This document shows positions 23,646-26,451 of a stretch of 64,000 bases of DNA, piece after piece (within the stretch, counting starts at the first letter, position 1; each line of letters opens with the position of its first letter). The translations under genes were made by a program, and so were the position numbers. The notes under the pieces are model-generated. The model did no database searches, was not told the DNA's origin, and saw only the letters and a list, made by a program, of their open reading frames with translations. Source of the DNA: Marinilabiliales bacterium (GTDB taxonomy: Bacteria; Bacteroidota; Bacteroidia; Bacteroidales; PUMT01); NCBI GenBank assembly GCA_007695015.1, contig REEN01000063.1:37302-101301 (forward strand), given 5' to 3'.

Positions 23646-24767
23646 TTACTTAACAAGCCTTCCTTTCCAGTCAAATACTGCATAAAAGGAGGTGATAACA
23701 GTAAAACTAATATAAAATAAATAGAGAAGCTGCACTACCGGAAAATATTTCATGAGATTCTGCTGCCCGAAAAACCGGGAAACTGATAGAAGAAACGGAA
23801 AATCAATAACAGATTTTACTGCAATTATAAAACAGGCCGTCAGCAATAGCTGCGGGAAAACGGGAGAAACCAATATACATGCCGCAGCCAAAAAATTCAC
23901 AAGGAATACAAGCAGCGCAGTAAACACTGATGCAGGATTCCTGTAATAACGGCTTTTCGAAGTCCACCTTCGCCTTTGCTTAAAAAACTCCTCCATTGTA
24001 TCAATCGTGACAATACGAACGATTGCATTGCGGTCTTTCAGAAAGGAGATTTTTTTATCTCCCTTACTTTGCATGGCCATAAGCAGAAAGACATCATCGC
24101 CTGAAGCAATATCCCTACGAATCCCTTCCTTAACTTCAATATAGGCATCCCTTTTAAATGCAAGGTTGGCAGAACTGCACATAACTCCCTTACCAGCTGC
24201 GATCGACCCGGCAGTTGAGCCGGTAAGACTGAGAAATTCAAGTCTTTGAAATATTGAAAAGAAAGTATCCGGGCCATCCATCAGCACCGGACCGGAAACC
24301 AGGTCAGCACCAGAGCTGCAGAGTTTACCGGCCATTGCTTTTACCCAGCCGGGTGACGGAATGCAGTCGGCGTCGGTAGTGAGCACAAGCGGATAACGGG
24401 CCATTGAGACTCCCTTGATAAGTGCATTCTTTTTACCTTCCACACCATCTCCAAGCCTCAGATAACGGATGTTCCTGAATTTTTTTGCAAAAGACATAAC
24501 CATCTCAAAGGTAAGATCAGTTGAGTGATCATCAATAATCATGATCTCCATAAGGTTCTGCGGGTAGTCCTGATCCTTCAGGGAATTTATCAGTGAAACA
24601 ATGTTCAGCTCTTCATTTCTTACAGGAATTATTACAGAAACTTTACCCGTGGATACAGGGCTCCCCATAGAAACAGCAGGCATCCGGACCCATCCGGAAA
24701 AGAAAATCCCGATCAGTAAAAGATAGAGACTTGCAAGTATTACCGCAGTTATCCACAATACGGTCAT
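23646..24767 (-). CDS. glycosyltransferase family 2 (membrane-embedded)
   Basis: VSVIIPVRNEELNIVSLINSLKDQDYP, IIDDHSTD, TDADC. It has one N-terminal and several C-terminal TM helices. The start is taken at the ATG at 24767 (MTVLWITAV...), because the longer ORF to 24845 overlaps the GNAT gene. Confidence 0.85.
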   Translation of the reverse strand: MTVLWITAVILASLYLLLIGIFFSGWVRMPAVSMGSPVSTGKVSVIIPVRNEELNIVSLINSLKDQDYPQNLMEIMIIDDHSTDLTFEMVMSFAKKFRNIRYLRLGDGVEGKKNALIKGVSMARYPLVLTTDADCIPSPGWVKAMAGKLCSSGADLVSGPVLMDGPDTFFSIFQRLEFLSLTGSTAGSIAAGKGVMCSSANLAFKRDAYIEVKEGIRRDIASGDDVFLLMAMQSKGDKKISFLKDRNAIVRIVTIDTMEEFFKQRRRWTSKSRYYRNPASVFTALLVFLVNFLAAACILVSPVFPQLLLTACFIIAVKSVIDFPFLLSVSRFFGQQNLMKYFPVVQLLYLFYISFTVITSFYAVFDWKGRLVK

Positions 24768-24807
24768 AGGCAGTTCAAAATAACACCATTGAAACAGGTT
24801 CTGCCGG

Positions 24808-25260
24808 TTACTGAGGGATCCACTCAAACAGCTGATAATGTTCACTGTCCATCCCGAAATGTCGGTATACCTGCATTGCCTTTTTGTTGGTAATATCTAC
24901 ATACAATCTAATCCCGCCCAGTCCGGGATCATCTTCAACCCTTTGTTTAATATGTTCGTATAAATGACTAAATAAGCGTTTATTACGATGTTGCTGAACC
25001 ACATAAACGGATTGTATCCATAAAATTGTGCGGTTCCTCCAGTCACTCCATTCATAGGTGATAAGAAGTGACCCGGCTATATTTCCATCGAATTCGGCTA
25101 CATAGTAACAACCTTTACCGGGATCTGAGAATACAGCTTTCACTCCCTGCTCCACATCTGCAGGATCAAGCTCAAGTTGTTCCGTTTCCCTGGCCAAAAG
25201 GATCTGAAAAGATTCAATTATTCTGCTGTCACCCTCCTTCGCTTTCCTTACTACAATCAT
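24808..25260 (-). CDS. GNAT family N-acetyltransferase
   Basis: 150 aa with an acetyl-CoA binding block (IQSVYVVQQHRNKRLFSHLYEHI) and typical GNAT length and layout. Confidence 0.85.
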   Translation of the reverse strand: MIVVRKAKEGDSRIIESFQILLARETEQLELDPADVEQGVKAVFSDPGKGCYYVAEFDGNIAGSLLITYEWSDWRNRTILWIQSVYVVQQHRNKRLFSHLYEHIKQRVEDDPGLGGIRLYVDITNKKAMQVYRHFGMDSEHYQLFEWIPQ

Positions 25261-25356: not shown

Positions 25357-26451
25357 TCAGGCTCCCTGAATGTCTAAATTTGTAAGTCCCGCACGCCTGG
25401 CGGCGTTAACAGCATTACGGTACTCCCCTGTCGTTATTCTCCGGCTGATCCCGGGATAATCCCCGGCCTTGTACATTGGACGGTACTGCGACATTATGTT
25501 GATATAGGTGTCTTTCGGGAGATTCTCCCCAATCCAGTTCATTACCTGCTCAGATCCACCTACATTATTGGGCATAACCAGGTGTCTTACCATCAGGCCT
25601 CTCTGCATGATACCGTCGTTTGTTGTCTGCCCGGCAACACCAACCTGCCTGTTCATCTCGATCAATGCCTTTTTCGTAACTTCAGGGTATGATTCGGCAC
25701 CGGGAGAGTATTTATCTGCCATCTCAGGATCAAAGTATTTAAAATCAGCAAGATAAATATCAACAATCCCGTCGAGCATATAAAGTATCTCCAGTCGCTC
25801 CCACCCGTGCGTATTGTATACAAGAGGCAGATTAAGTCCTTTTGATGCTGCTTCGTCAAGTGCAAGAAGTATATGAGGTGCGTAATGTGTAGGTGTAACA
25901 ACATTGATGTTATGACACCCCATCCGCTGAAGCGAAAGCATCATATTCGCCAGCCTGCCTACGCTTACCCTATGTCCTGCACCTCCCTGGCTGATCTCCC
26001 AGTTAATGCAAAACACACAAAGAAGACCGCAATGAGTAAAGAAAACCGTTCCCGAACCGTTCCTGCCTACAAGCGGGCGCTCTTCACCAAAGTGGGGACT
26101 GAAGGATGCGACTTCCAGCCTTGAAGTTGCATTGCAATAATCGCCCTTCTGGCCCCTCAGCCTGTCATTCTCGCACTGGCGGGGACAGAGCCGGCAGGCA
26201 GCCATCATATCCCACATAACTTCAGCCCTGGCTTTAAGTTCACCCGTCCGGTGAAGTTTAAGGTATCCCGGCTCAAATTCACCGTTTTCAAAATTGTTTT
26301 TTGGGTTCATTACAGTCCCTGATTTTTCATTATCACTGCCGGAGTTTCCTGAAAAACAAGCTGCCATGGCAGGCATGGGCAACAGTCCGGCACATGATAA
26401 CGATGCCATCTTTCTGCAAAACTCCCTGCGGCCTGATTTGAATCTGTCCAT
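25357..26451 (-). CDS. radical SAM protein, PflX-like (PFL-activase homologue) with Tat/lipobox-like N-terminus
   Basis: CxxxCxxC appears as HCGLLCVFC. An upstream Cys cluster CRLCPRQCENDRLRGQKGDYC is typical of PflX/COG1313 proteins. The N-terminus MDRFKSGRREFCRKMASLSCAGLLPMPAMAAC carries an RR-x-F motif, a hydrophobic stretch and AMAAC. Confidence 0.85.
   Translation of the reverse strand: MDRFKSGRREFCRKMASLSCAGLLPMPAMAACFSGNSGSDNEKSGTVMNPKNNFENGEFEPGYLKLHRTGELKARAEVMWDMMAACRLCPRQCENDRLRGQKGDYCNATSRLEVASFSPHFGEERPLVGRNGSGTVFFTHCGLLCVFCINWEISQGGAGHRVSVGRLANMMLSLQRMGCHNINVVTPTHYAPHILLALDEAASKGLNLPLVYNTHGWERLEILYMLDGIVDIYLADFKYFDPEMADKYSPGAESYPEVTKKALIEMNRQVGVAGQTTNDGIMQRGLMVRHLVMPNNVGGSEQVMNWIGENLPKDTYINIMSQYRPMYKAGDYPGISRRITTGEYRNAVNAARRAGLTNLDIQGA

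What the first reader, a model, noticed from the sequence alone, without database searches (positions are those of the whole stretch)
25357..26451. PflX-like radical SAM enzyme with a twin-arginine plus lipobox-like N-terminus
Sequence shows the catalytic core (HCGLLCVFC, plus an upstream CRLCPRQC...C cluster) preceded by about 60 extra residues. These begin MDRFKSGRREFCRKMASLSCAGLLPMPAMAAC, which contains S-x-R-R-x-F, a hydrophobic stretch, and A-M-A-A-C resembling a signal peptidase I/II site.

Established knowledge: Tat exports folded, cofactor-loaded proteins such as Fe-S enzymes. Radical SAM chemistry needs SAM and a reductant, both normally cytoplasmic. PflX homologues usually start near the 'YLKL...GEL' region.

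Inference: either this is an exported or membrane-tethered radical SAM enzyme, which would be unusual, or the true start is an internal Met (for example MNPKNNFENGEF at about 26310) and the Tat-like peptide is fortuitous. The 47 stop-free codons and the motif combination argue mildly for translation.
Basis: partly seen in the sequence, partly recalled or inferred. Interest (0 to 1): 0.55.

Follow-up and report, generated by a model that had tools for sequence, protein, structure and literature searches.

The report
Radical SAM enzyme carrying export signal
This gene encodes an iron-sulfur "radical SAM" enzyme, a class assumed to work only inside the cell, yet it and its relatives in more than fifteen bacterial phyla carry a conserved twin-arginine export signal, so the enzyme is probably sent to the outer face of the cell membrane, which no paper I could find describes for this enzyme class.

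Summary
ORF 25357..26451 (-) encodes a 364-aa PflX-like radical SAM protein. Both cysteine clusters are intact, and 57 extra N-terminal residues begin MDRFKSGRREFCRK.

The extension is not fortuitous:
- Among 156 non-redundant relatives anchored on the arginine pair, the profile is (S/T)-R(100%)-R(93%)-x-F(85%)-(I/L/C)-(K/R), the canonical Tat consensus. A moderately hydrophobic stretch and a variable linker follow.
- The signal codons are under purifying selection (dN/dS 0.16-0.42).
- Shorter database versions, including NCBI's own 317-aa call for this gene, are start-calling artefacts.
- More distant PflX relatives (<50% identity, about 300 aa) have no extension.

The clade spans at least 15 phyla, all uncultured genomes.

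Caveats:
- The lipobox cysteine is not conserved (Ser in the 92%-identical orthologue).
- Tat HMMs do not reach threshold on this protein.
- Tat genes could not be checked.
- About 12% of members carry Sec-like or transmembrane N-termini instead.
- Export itself is untested.

The internal Met48 is as conserved as the arginine pair in the closest clade, so two isoforms, one exported and one cytoplasmic, are possible.

Best reading: a Tat-targeted, membrane-tethered radical SAM enzyme with an unknown substrate. I rate it a new variant of a known kind, of high interest if confirmed.

The parts
25357..26451 (-). Whole gene: 364-aa PflX-like radical SAM protein with an N-terminal targeting peptide (stop codon at 25357-25359)
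   Evidence: It is 92% identical to the 364-aa P0001. NCBI's record TVR71660.1 calls the same gene from Met48 (317 aa).
26410..26451 (-). n-region with the twin-arginine motif, MDRFKSGRREFCRK (residues 1-14). The RR codons are at 26425-26430.
   Evidence: for coordinates. RR-anchored profile of 156 relatives: S/T/N 0.84, R 1.00, R 0.93, x, F 0.85, I/L/C 0.79, K/R 0.70. RR is present in 21 of 21 complete sequences of the closest clade.
26359..26409 (-). h-region MASLSCAGLLPMPAMAA (residues 15-31): uncharged and moderately hydrophobic
   Evidence: The maximum 15-residue Kyte-Doolittle mean is 1.53. The median is 1.63 for RR-type relatives and 2.41 for RR-less Sec/TM-like relatives. dN/dS of residues 1-31 is 0.16-0.42. 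The AF2 model shows helices at 8-20 and 26-33 with low to moderate confidence.
26356..26358 (-). Cys32, the possible lipidation site (lipobox-like M-A-A-C). An alternative signal peptidase I site is A28-M-A30|A31.
   Evidence: It fits a PROSITE-style lipobox regex. It is Ser in the 92%-identical orthologue, Cys in only 13 of 23 of the closest clade, and a lipobox is present in only 31 of 156 clade members.
26281..26358 (-). Variable, low-complexity linker (residues 32-57)
   Evidence: pLDDT is below 50 for residues 34-57. dN/dS is 0.35-0.92. Length and sequence vary across all relatives.
26308..26310 (-). Internal Met48, a conserved candidate second start codon that would give a canonical-length cytoplasmic PflX
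   Evidence: Met in 21 of 23 of the closest clade, at a fixed position inside an otherwise variable linker. Gene callers chose it for TVR71660.1 and P0020. The mRNA-structure test was inconclusive.
25360..26280 (-). Catalytic core (residues 58-364), a partial TIM-barrel radical SAM fold
   Evidence: pLDDT is mostly above 90. The best solved-structure match is PFL-activating enzyme 3C8F/3CB8: Foldseek E 2e-8, TM 0.68 on the target, 12-14% identity. dN/dS is 0.05-0.09.
26134..26196 (-). Auxiliary cluster motif C86-x2-C89-x3-C93...C106 (CRLCPRQCENDRLRGQKGDYC)
   Evidence: All four Cys are invariant in the clade and are also conserved in the extension-less relatives.
26008..26031 (-). Radical SAM cluster motif C141-x3-C145-x2-C148 (CGLLCVFC)
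   Evidence: The motif is invariant and conserved in both groups. Pfam Radical_SAM matches residues 136-254 with E 1.8e-6.

Best explanation
The gene encodes a PflX-type radical SAM enzyme that is made with an N-terminal twin-arginine (Tat) targeting peptide.

Shown:
- The peptide is translated, is selected for, and defines a discrete, highly conserved clade found in at least 15 phyla.
- The catalytic apparatus is fully retained: the CX3CX2C cluster plus a four-Cys auxiliary cluster.

Inferred:
- The protein folds and receives its two [4Fe-4S] clusters, and possibly SAM, in the cytoplasm.
- It is recognised by TatBC through S-x-R-R-x-F-C-R-K and is translocated folded.
- It ends up on the outer face of the cytoplasmic membrane. 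It is held there by a flexible 25-residue tether, either through lipidation of Cys32 or through an uncleaved or signal-peptidase-I-processed signal.
- There it performs 5'-deoxyadenosyl-radical chemistry on an unknown envelope or periplasmic substrate. The auxiliary cluster would serve as the entry point for electrons.

In this Bacteroidota lineage a second initiation at the conserved Met48 may additionally give a cytoplasmic isoform.
For: Conservation of the extension:
- It is conserved across relatives from Bacteroidota, Omnitrophota, Acidobacteriota, Gemmatimonadota, Desulfobacterota, Nitrospirota, Chloroflexota, Planctomycetota, Spirochaetota, Lentisphaerota, Calditrichota and others.
- Of 88 loci, 70 have RR, 5-6 have RK/KR in the same context, 11 have another hydrophobic N-terminus and 2 have none.
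- The RR-anchored profile reproduces the Tat consensus exactly. R8 and R9 are the only conserved N-terminal columns.
- dN/dS is 0.16-0.42 for the signal, 0.35-0.92 for the linker and 0.05-0.09 for the core.
- ATG1 lies in an unstructured, A-rich mRNA region in 5 of 6 orthologues.
- 'Short' homologues have the RR peptide in frame upstream.

Tat-like character of the signal:
- The h-regions of RR-type members are less hydrophobic than those of RR-less members (1.63 vs 2.41). This is the known Tat-versus-Sec difference (general knowledge).
- Many lineages end the h-region with [AGS]-C followed by K/R (65 of 156; a strict lipobox in 31 of 156, at a constant distance of 24-26 residues from RR).
- Chloroflexota members have Pro/Thr-rich tethers after that Cys. 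Both features make sense only outside the cytoplasm.

Contrast with relatives and state of the enzyme:
- Relatives below 50% identity are about 300 aa, have no extension and share all cluster ligands.
- The core is a confident PFL-AE-like radical SAM fold.
- Tat is the known route for cofactor-loaded Fe-S proteins (general knowledge).
Against: - No SAM pool, SAM exporter or sufficiently low-potential donor is known outside the cytoplasm (general knowledge), and I found no precedent.
- The Tat HMMs do not report the window protein. PF10518 hits 2 of 61 relatives and TIGR01409 hits 6 of 61.
- The window motif has Cys where TatP-style patterns expect L/I/V/M/F.
- tatA and tatC were not found in the window or in any fetched locus, and the rest of the genome could not be searched.
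- About 12% of clade members have Sec-type, lipoprotein or TM-anchor N-termini. That route would be incompatible with export of a folded Fe-S protein.
- Cys32 is not conserved.
- No partner gene is conserved across the clade.
- The conserved Met48 leaves room for a cytoplasmic isoform that does the actual catalysis.
Confidence: 0.55

Rival explanations
1. Two isoforms from one gene. Initiation at ATG1 gives the Tat-targeted form. Initiation at the conserved internal Met48 gives a 317-aa cytoplasmic enzyme that looks like a canonical PflX and does the SAM-dependent chemistry where SAM and reductant exist. This extends the best explanation rather than excluding it.
For: - Met48 is kept in 21 of 23 of the closest clade, at a fixed position 11 residues before F59. 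Its neighbours vary almost freely (linker dN/dS 0.35-0.92).
- 52 of 69 Bacteroidota-like members have a Met in that zone, against 45 of 129 others.
- The resulting N-terminus matches those of the extension-less relatives.
- The upstream 30 nt are A-rich (0.33-0.50 A).
- The mRNA is unstructured around it in 3 of 6 orthologues.
- Gene callers pick it.
Against: - The mRNA around the internal ATG is not unstructured in 3 of 6 orthologues, including an intermediate value in the window itself.
- Most non-Bacteroidota clade members have no Met there.
- In a second Bacteroidota subclade the Met follows an A-x-A-like site and could simply be residue +1 of the processed protein.
- There are no expression data.
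Confidence: 0.3
2. The N-terminal peptide is a membrane tether or a vestigial Tat-like peptide, as in NarG or NapF. The catalytic domain stays in the cytoplasm, at the membrane surface.
For: - This would solve the SAM and reductant problem.
- About 12% of members have replaced the RR signal with plain hydrophobic anchors. For some of these the flanking charges do not clearly predict an N-in/C-out topology (for example L069, L024, L005, by direct reading).
- The Tat HMMs are below threshold.
- Vestigial Tat motifs on cytoplasmic proteins are known (general knowledge).
Against: - The RR pair is 100%/93% conserved in a full consensus context. That level of conservation is not what I expect of a vestigial motif (general knowledge).
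- Positive charge at the N-flank predicts N-in/C-out.
- Lipobox-like [AGS]-C sits at a constant distance in many lineages, and Pro/Thr-rich tethers follow it in Chloroflexota. Both are pointless on the cytoplasmic side, because lipoprotein processing happens on the outer face of the membrane (general knowledge).
- Known Tat-inserted N-terminal anchors, such as the Rieske protein, place the domain outside (general knowledge).
Confidence: 0.22
3. The true and only start is Met48, as in NCBI's annotation. The upstream 47 codons are untranslated and the Tat-like motif is chance.
For: - NCBI's pipeline calls the 317-aa form (TVR71660.1).
- A handful of database homologues are also 317 aa.
Against: - The upstream frame is open and carries RR in every orthologue examined at DNA level, including a '317-aa' one.
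- dN/dS is 0.16-0.42 with synonymous sites near saturation.
- The Tat consensus is conserved across at least 15 phyla.
- ATG1 has an A-rich, unstructured context that is conserved with the orthologue.
Confidence: 0.04

Closest known systems
PflX-type radical SAM proteins (COG1313 / KEGG K04070 'putative pyruvate formate lyase activating enzyme'), the roughly 300-aa form without an extension
   Same: They are homologous over the whole core at 38-50% identity. They share the CX3CX2C motif, the upstream C-x2-C-x3-C...C motif and about 45 further conserved positions. JGI names clade members with the same label.
   Different: The roughly 300-aa forms start 2-10 residues before the P-x-Y-L motif and have no targeting peptide. 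The window's clade adds a Tat-type signal plus a linker and is much more tightly conserved (58-74% identity across phyla). As far as I know, and as far as my searches show, the function of either group is unknown.
Pyruvate formate-lyase activating enzyme PflA (PDB 3C8F, 3CB8, 8FO0) and other glycyl-radical-enzyme activases
   Same: PflA is the best structural match (Foldseek E 2e-8, TM 0.68 on the target). All 61 clade members give weak hits to at least one activase HMM.
   Different: Identity is only 12-14%. Scores are far below every activase model's cut-off. No glycyl-radical enzyme is encoded nearby in any locus. PflA has no auxiliary N-terminal cluster and no signal peptide (general knowledge).
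Tat-exported iron-sulfur proteins (hydrogenase small subunits, HybA, NrfC, the Rieske protein)
   Same: They have an N-terminal S/T-R-R-x-F-L-K signal on a protein that must receive Fe-S clusters in the cytoplasm. The Rieske protein keeps its signal as a membrane anchor (general knowledge).
   Different: Those are electron-transfer subunits of respiratory complexes encoded in operons with their partners. This is a stand-alone SAM-cleaving enzyme, with no partner conserved across the clade and no dedicated Tat chaperone gene nearby.
Vestigial twin-arginine motifs on cytoplasmic proteins (NarG, NapF)
   Same: An RR-containing N-terminus on a metalloprotein whose chemistry is expected to be cytoplasmic (general knowledge).
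   Different: Here the full consensus, the h-region and often a lipobox are conserved. This looks like a working signal, not a remnant.
Radical SAM maturases of exported proteins (anaerobic sulfatase-maturating enzyme; HxsB/HxsC of the HXS defence system, PMC13128918)
   Same: Radical SAM chemistry whose end product functions in the periplasm.
   Different: The anaerobic sulfatase-maturating enzyme modifies its substrate before export and is not itself exported (general knowledge). For HXS it is the effector HxsA that is periplasmic, and the authors could not assign the location of HxsB/HxsC. Here the enzyme itself carries the export signal.

Membership tests
Radical SAM superfamily | CX3CX2C motif supplying three Cys to the SAM-binding [4Fe-4S] cluster | tested here: met
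   C141-x3-C145-x2-C148 (CGLLCVFC). The motif is invariant in 61 relatives.
Radical SAM superfamily | Pfam PF04055 match at or above the gathering score | tested here: inconclusive
   The window protein scores 28.7 bits against a cut-off of 29.5, with E 1.8e-6. All 61 aligned relatives match, with a best E of 3.7e-13.
Radical SAM superfamily | Partial (beta/alpha) TIM-barrel fold | tested here: met
   The AF2 model has mean pLDDT 86 and a core mostly above 90. 44 PDB matches at E <= 0.001, and every listed one is a radical SAM enzyme, with PFL-AE the best.
Radical SAM superfamily | Reductive cleavage of SAM to a 5'-deoxyadenosyl radical | not testable with these tools
   This needs anaerobic biochemistry.
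PflX type (COG1313 / K04070) | Full-length homology to the roughly 300-aa 'putative pyruvate formate lyase activating enzyme' proteins | tested here: met
   1013 representatives at E <= 1e-30. The alignments cover query residues from about 57-85 to about 360. JGI's names agree.
PflX type (COG1313 / K04070) | Additional N-terminal C-x2-C-x3-C...C motif | tested here: met
   C86, C89, C93 and C106 are conserved both in the clade and in the extension-less relatives.
PflX type (COG1313 / K04070) | Match to the COG, KEGG or PIRSF model itself | not testable with these tools
   Those libraries are not available here. No NCBIfam model reaches its cut-off.
Glycyl-radical enzyme activases (TIGR02493, TIGR02494 and others) | HMM score above the curated cut-off | tested here: not met
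   The best activase-type hits score 10-18 bits against cut-offs of 131-425.
Glycyl-radical enzyme activases (TIGR02493, TIGR02494 and others) | Genomic association with a glycyl-radical enzyme | tested here: not met
   No glycyl-radical-enzyme Pfam family appears among the gene tables of the loci listed with Pfam hits. No family of that kind recurs in the neighbour clustering.
Tat (twin-arginine) signal peptide | S/T-R-R-x-F-L-K motif near the N-terminus | tested here: met
   The window has S6-G-R8-R9-E-F11-C-R-K. The clade profile matches the consensus position by position. The Cys at the second hydrophobic position fails a strict TatP-style regex.
Tat (twin-arginine) signal peptide | Uncharged, only moderately hydrophobic h-region after the motif | tested here: met
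   17 uncharged residues with a maximum 15-residue KD of 1.53. The clade median is 1.63, against 2.41 for RR-less members.
Tat (twin-arginine) signal peptide | Match to PF10518 or TIGR01409 | tested here: not met
   There is no hit for the window protein, even as a 45-aa fragment at E <= 10. PF10518 hits 2 of 61 relatives and TIGR01409 hits 6 of 61, and the best PF10518 score seen on a relative's 45-residue N-terminal fragment is 17.6 bits against a cut-off of 22.7. These short models are insensitive.
Tat (twin-arginine) signal peptide | TatA/TatC encoded in the genome, and export that depends on them | not testable with these tools
   No tatA or tatC is found in the 64-kb window or in the fetched loci.
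Bacterial lipoprotein (signal peptidase II) signal | Lipobox [LVI..][AST..][GAS]-C at the end of the h-region | tested here: met
   GLLPMPAMAAC matches a PROSITE-style pattern, with Cys at position 32.
Bacterial lipoprotein (signal peptidase II) signal | Conservation of the lipidated Cys among orthologues | tested here: not met
   The position is Ser in the 92%-identical orthologue. It is Cys in 13 of 23 of the closest clade. A strict lipobox is present in 31 of 156 clade members.

The most novel reading that the evidence does not exclude
Radical SAM chemistry takes place outside the cytoplasm. A tightly conserved, horizontally spread clade of PflX-like enzymes in at least 15 phyla of anaerobes is exported folded by Tat, with its two [4Fe-4S] clusters and possibly pre-bound SAM. 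It acts at the outer face of the membrane on an envelope substrate. In Bacteroidota the same gene also yields a cytoplasmic isoform from a conserved internal start. In one sub-clade the enzyme works with a polytopic membrane protein that has a SAM-fold (spermidine-synthase-like) domain, which may also face outward.
Probability: 0.4. Interest if true: 0.88.

Novelty: new variant of a known kind. Interest (0 to 1): 0.7.

Why it matters
Radical SAM enzymes form one of the largest enzyme superfamilies. They are treated as strictly cytoplasmic, because they need SAM and a very low-potential electron.

A conserved, selected export signal on one clade, found across more than fifteen phyla, implies one of two things. 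Either SAM-radical chemistry can run in the periplasm, with a carried or regenerated SAM and a periplasmic reductant, or Tat signals have a conserved non-export role on a cytoplasmic enzyme. Either outcome would be new for both the radical SAM and the Tat fields. It would also give a first functional handle on the uncharacterised PflX family.

There is a practical point as well. Annotation pipelines cut this signal off: NCBI calls this very gene from Met48. The feature is therefore hidden in part of the public annotation.

The hypothesis is directly testable with reporter fusions, fractionation and N-terminal proteomics.

Tried and rejected
- **Literature.** Searches for twin-arginine or Tat signal with radical SAM, for 'periplasmic radical SAM', for PflX and for COG1313 found nothing relevant. 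The HXS paper concerns an exported substrate, not an exported enzyme.
- **Tat genes.** This is uninformative for the whole genome. No other Tat-type ORF was found in the window.
- **Tat HMMs.** Pfam and NCBIfam Tat models were run on full proteins, and the Pfam model also on 45-aa fragments. They are below threshold for the window protein.
- **Conserved partners.** Gene tables of ten homologue look-ups and clustering of 536 neighbour ORFs from about 85 loci found no partner conserved across the clade. Only a sub-clade-specific spermidine-synthase-like membrane protein recurs, and it is absent from the window. A recurrent NrdG-like neighbour is probably just paralogy.
- **Context of other relatives.** The context of an extension-less relative (P0125) and of a second RR-bearing lineage (P0124) lay on short contigs with nothing informative.
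- **RNA elements and signals.** There is no Rfam hit upstream (so no riboswitch), nothing in the whole window, and no tRNA. Promoter and terminator scans were at background.
- **Solved structures by sequence.** No significant hit.
- **Topology of the partner protein.** Crude hydropathy and positive-inside counting for the spermidine-synthase-like protein suggests an outward-facing domain, but it is too rough to rely on.
- **mRNA structure.** This supports ATG1 as a start and is inconclusive for Met48.
Full report
**1. What is there**

ORF 25357..26451 on the minus strand encodes 364 residues from an ATG.
- MDRFKSGRREFCRK at residues 1-14, with the RR codons at 26425-26430.
- An uncharged stretch MASLSCAGLLPMPAMAA at residues 15-31, then Cys32.
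- A low-complexity linker up to residue 57, containing Met48 at 26308-26310.
- CRLCPRQC...C at residues 86-106.
- CGLLCVFC at residues 141-148.

Pfam sees only Radical_SAM, with E 1.8e-6 and 28.7 bits, just under the 29.5 gathering score. NCBIfam gives only weak hits to activase-type models, far below their cut-offs. Sequence search of the PDB finds nothing.

An AlphaFold2 model built on 61 relatives is confident for residues 58-364. It is poor for residues 1-6 and 34-57, with two short helices in the signal region. Its best structural match is pyruvate formate-lyase activating enzyme (3C8F/3CB8: E 2e-8, TM 0.68 on the target, 12-14% identity), followed by other radical SAM enzymes. The protein is therefore a PflX-like radical SAM enzyme, as described.

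**2. Is the extension real or fortuitous?**

A search of 5.8 billion proteins returned 7611 homologues. The best 120 are 60-92% identical, and most cover 98-100% of the query.

Their N-termini differ in almost everything except one feature. Each has a basic start, then S/T-R-R-x-F-(I/L/C)-(K/R), then about 20 uncharged residues. That stretch often ends in [AGS]-C. A variable polar linker follows, then the conserved FEPGYLKLH..GEL core.
- Of 112 sequences with at least 20 residues before the core, 90 have RR followed by hydrophobic residues and 78 have the strict consensus. Several of the rest have RK in the same context.
- In a 61-sequence alignment, R8 is invariant and R9 is at least 90% conserved. 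They are the only conserved N-terminal columns.
- Anchoring 156 non-redundant sequences on the arginine pair gives -1 S/T/N 0.84, R 1.00, R 0.93 (K 0.07), x, F 0.85, I/L/C 0.79, K/R 0.70, S 0.54. That is the textbook Tat consensus.

The nine 'short' hits are start-calling artefacts or truncated records. They include P0002, which is NCBI's own record for this very gene (TVR71660.1, 317 aa, called from Met48). The DNA upstream of the 317-aa P0020 encodes MAYHVLSRRNFCRNALPVACAGLVSIPSLAAC in frame.

At the codon level, six Bacteroidales orthologues give these dN/dS values:

| Region | Residues | dN/dS |
|---|---|---|
| Signal | 1-31 | 0.16-0.42 |
| Linker | 32-57 | 0.35-0.92 |
| Core | 58-364 | 0.05-0.09 |

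ATG1 sits in an A-rich region whose last ~60 bases are conserved with the nearest orthologue. The mRNA there is weakly structured in 5 of 6 orthologues. The extension is therefore translated and under selection.

**3. The clade**

In a library clustered at 50% identity, the extension-bearing proteins collapse into one main cluster (P0121) plus a few outliers (P0124, P0139, P0147, P0151). All other hits are below 50% identical and about 300 aa. They align from query residue 57-85 and start a few residues before the P-x-Y-L motif. One of these, checked at DNA level, has a stop codon 9 codons upstream of its start.

Both groups share the four auxiliary-cluster cysteines, the CX3CX2C triad and about 40 other positions. 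The clade with the extension has therefore lost none of the catalytic apparatus.

A scan of one genome per species found at least 596 coding stretches. The best 80 are all metagenome-assembled genomes. They come from:
- Bacteroidota, Omnitrophota, Acidobacteriota, Gemmatimonadota;
- Desulfobacterota and Syntrophia, Nitrospirota, Chloroflexota, Planctomycetota;
- Spirochaetota, Lentisphaerota, Calditrichota, Ignavibacteria;
- Elusimicrobiota, WOR-3, Aerophobetes and Myxococcota.

Core identity is 57-74% across these phyla, and a neighbour-joining tree ignores phylum borders. This points to strong constraint plus horizontal transfer.

Of 88 loci, 70 have RR and 5 (6 with L077) have RK or KR in the consensus context. 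Eleven have a different, much more hydrophobic N-terminus (Sec-type signal, lipoprotein signal or TM anchor). Two have none, one of them at a contig edge. The median maximum 15-residue hydropathy is 1.63 for RR-type members and 2.41 for RR-less members. This is the difference expected between Tat and Sec signals (general knowledge).

**4. Lipobox**

The window's GLLPMPAMAAC fits a PROSITE-style lipobox pattern. An A28-M-A30|A31 signal peptidase I site is equally readable.

The cysteine is Ser in the 92%-identical orthologue and is present in only 13 of 23 of the closest clade. Across the clade, a strict lipobox occurs in 31 of 156 and [AGS]-C in 65 of 156. Its distance from RR is remarkably constant at 24-26 residues, and K/R often follows it. 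Chloroflexota members follow the Cys with Pro/Thr/Ser-rich tethers.

Lipidation is therefore a lineage-specific option, not a defining trait. Where these features occur, they make sense only outside the cytoplasm.

**5. Internal Met48**

Inside the otherwise free-running linker, a Met is kept in 21 of 23 of the closest clade, at a fixed position 11 residues before F59. That is the same degree of conservation as the RR pair. A Met is present in that zone in 52 of 69 Bacteroidota-like members, against 45 of 129 others.

A protein started there would look like a canonical PflX of the extension-less kind. The upstream 30 nt are A-rich. Local mRNA structure is low in only 3 of 6 orthologues.

Dual initiation, giving an exported plus a cytoplasmic isoform, is a reasonable hypothesis for this lineage. 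It is not demonstrated.

**6. Genomic context**

In the window the gene is flanked by a divergent S41 peptidase gene upstream. A GNAT acetyltransferase and a GT2 glycosyltransferase lie downstream on the same strand. This arrangement is shared only with close Bacteroidales relatives.

Clustering 536 neighbour ORFs from about 85 loci found only one neighbour family that recurs next to the gene across several phyla. It is a roughly 760-aa polytopic membrane protein with a central spermidine-synthase domain (NF037959). It lies directly upstream on the same strand in 9 of 11 loci, with a 4-bp overlap in L045.

These loci form essentially one sub-clade of the tree, and the window lacks the gene. 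Crude positive-inside counting suggests its soluble domain faces outward, but this is weak.

One Omnitrophota locus has a DsbD/CcdA-type gene ending 24 nt before the enzyme's start.

No glycyl-radical enzyme, Tat chaperone or tat gene is nearby in any locus.

**7. Mechanism**

*Shown:* a translated, selected, Tat-consensus N-terminal peptide sits on an intact two-cluster radical SAM enzyme, and this combination defines a discrete clade.

*Inferred, confidence about 0.55:*
- The clusters, and possibly SAM, are inserted in the cytoplasm.
- The folded protein is exported by Tat.
- The catalytic domain is held on a flexible tether at the outer face of the membrane. The anchor is a lipidated Cys32 or an uncleaved or processed signal.
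- The auxiliary four-Cys cluster would be the natural electron entry point.

*Not explained:* the source of SAM and of a low-potential electron outside the cell, the substrate, and how the 12% of members with Sec-like N-termini would acquire their clusters.

*Rivals:*
- Dual isoforms (0.3). This is compatible with the main reading.
- A cytoplasmic-face tether or vestigial Tat peptide (0.22).
- Met48 as the only start (0.04).

**8. Comparison and novelty**

The protein is a member of the radical SAM superfamily and of the PflX type. It is not a member of the characterised glycyl-radical activase families, since scores and context both fail.

It resembles Tat-exported Fe-S proteins in its targeting logic, but it is a SAM-cleaving enzyme without a partner. 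I found no paper describing an exported or Tat-signal-bearing radical SAM enzyme, and no curated NCBIfam model covers the clade.

I rate it a new variant of a known kind. The enzyme family and the signal type are both known. Their conserved combination, and what it implies, is not.

Noticed in passing
window 26308-26310 (Met48 of the gene): An internal Met at a fixed position in an otherwise freely varying linker is conserved in 21 of 23 of the closest clade, as strongly as the RR pair. This suggests a second translation start that would give a cytoplasmic isoform.
   Followed up: partly
window 25357-26310 versus 25357-26451: NCBI's record for this gene (TVR71660.1, 317 aa) starts at Met48 and so removes the Tat-type peptide. 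The same truncation occurs in other database entries (for example P0020 in L008), although the RR peptide is in frame upstream.
   Followed up: yes
L045:4413-6713, L037:5624-7891, L024:8972-11227 and eight further loci (L051, L052, L060, L065, L067, L074, L078, L085): In one sub-clade spanning seven or more phyla, the enzyme gene lies next to a roughly 760-aa polytopic membrane protein with a central spermidine-synthase-like domain (GGAGG in place of GGGDG). In 9 of the 11 loci that gene is directly upstream on the same strand, with a 4-bp overlap in L045. Crude charge counting puts the soluble domain outside. The gene is absent from the window.
   Followed up: partly
L010:5306-5977 (Omnitrophota), also L005:7083-9100 and L010:7466-8631: A DsbD/CcdA-type transmembrane electron-transfer gene ends 24 nt before the enzyme's start in L010. 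Both L005 and L010 have an amino-acid permease plus a PCMT-like methyltransferase pair beside the enzyme gene.
   Followed up: no
L005, L010, L024, L051, L052, L064, L069, L079, L085 (N-termini of the enzyme gene): About 12% of clade members have replaced the RR signal with a much more hydrophobic Sec-type, lipoprotein or TM-anchor N-terminus. This is hard to reconcile with export of a folded Fe-S enzyme.
   Followed up: partly
L045 and L074 (Chloroflexota), residues after the lipobox Cys: Long Pro/Thr/Ser-rich tethers follow the Cys, for example KPEPSPTITPTLFPTITNTPSPTETTTPVESP. These are typical of extracytoplasmic lipoproteins.
   Followed up: no
window 23646-25260 (-): A GNAT acetyltransferase (24808-25260) and a GT2 glycosyltransferase (23646-24845, whose listed ORF overlaps the GNAT gene's end) follow the enzyme gene on the same strand. 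The trio is syntenic in five Bacteroidales loci but not beyond.
   Followed up: partly
window 1-64000: There is no tRNA gene and no Rfam family at gathering score in the whole 64-kb window. The gene content otherwise looks like ordinary Bacteroidota chromosome.
   Followed up: yes
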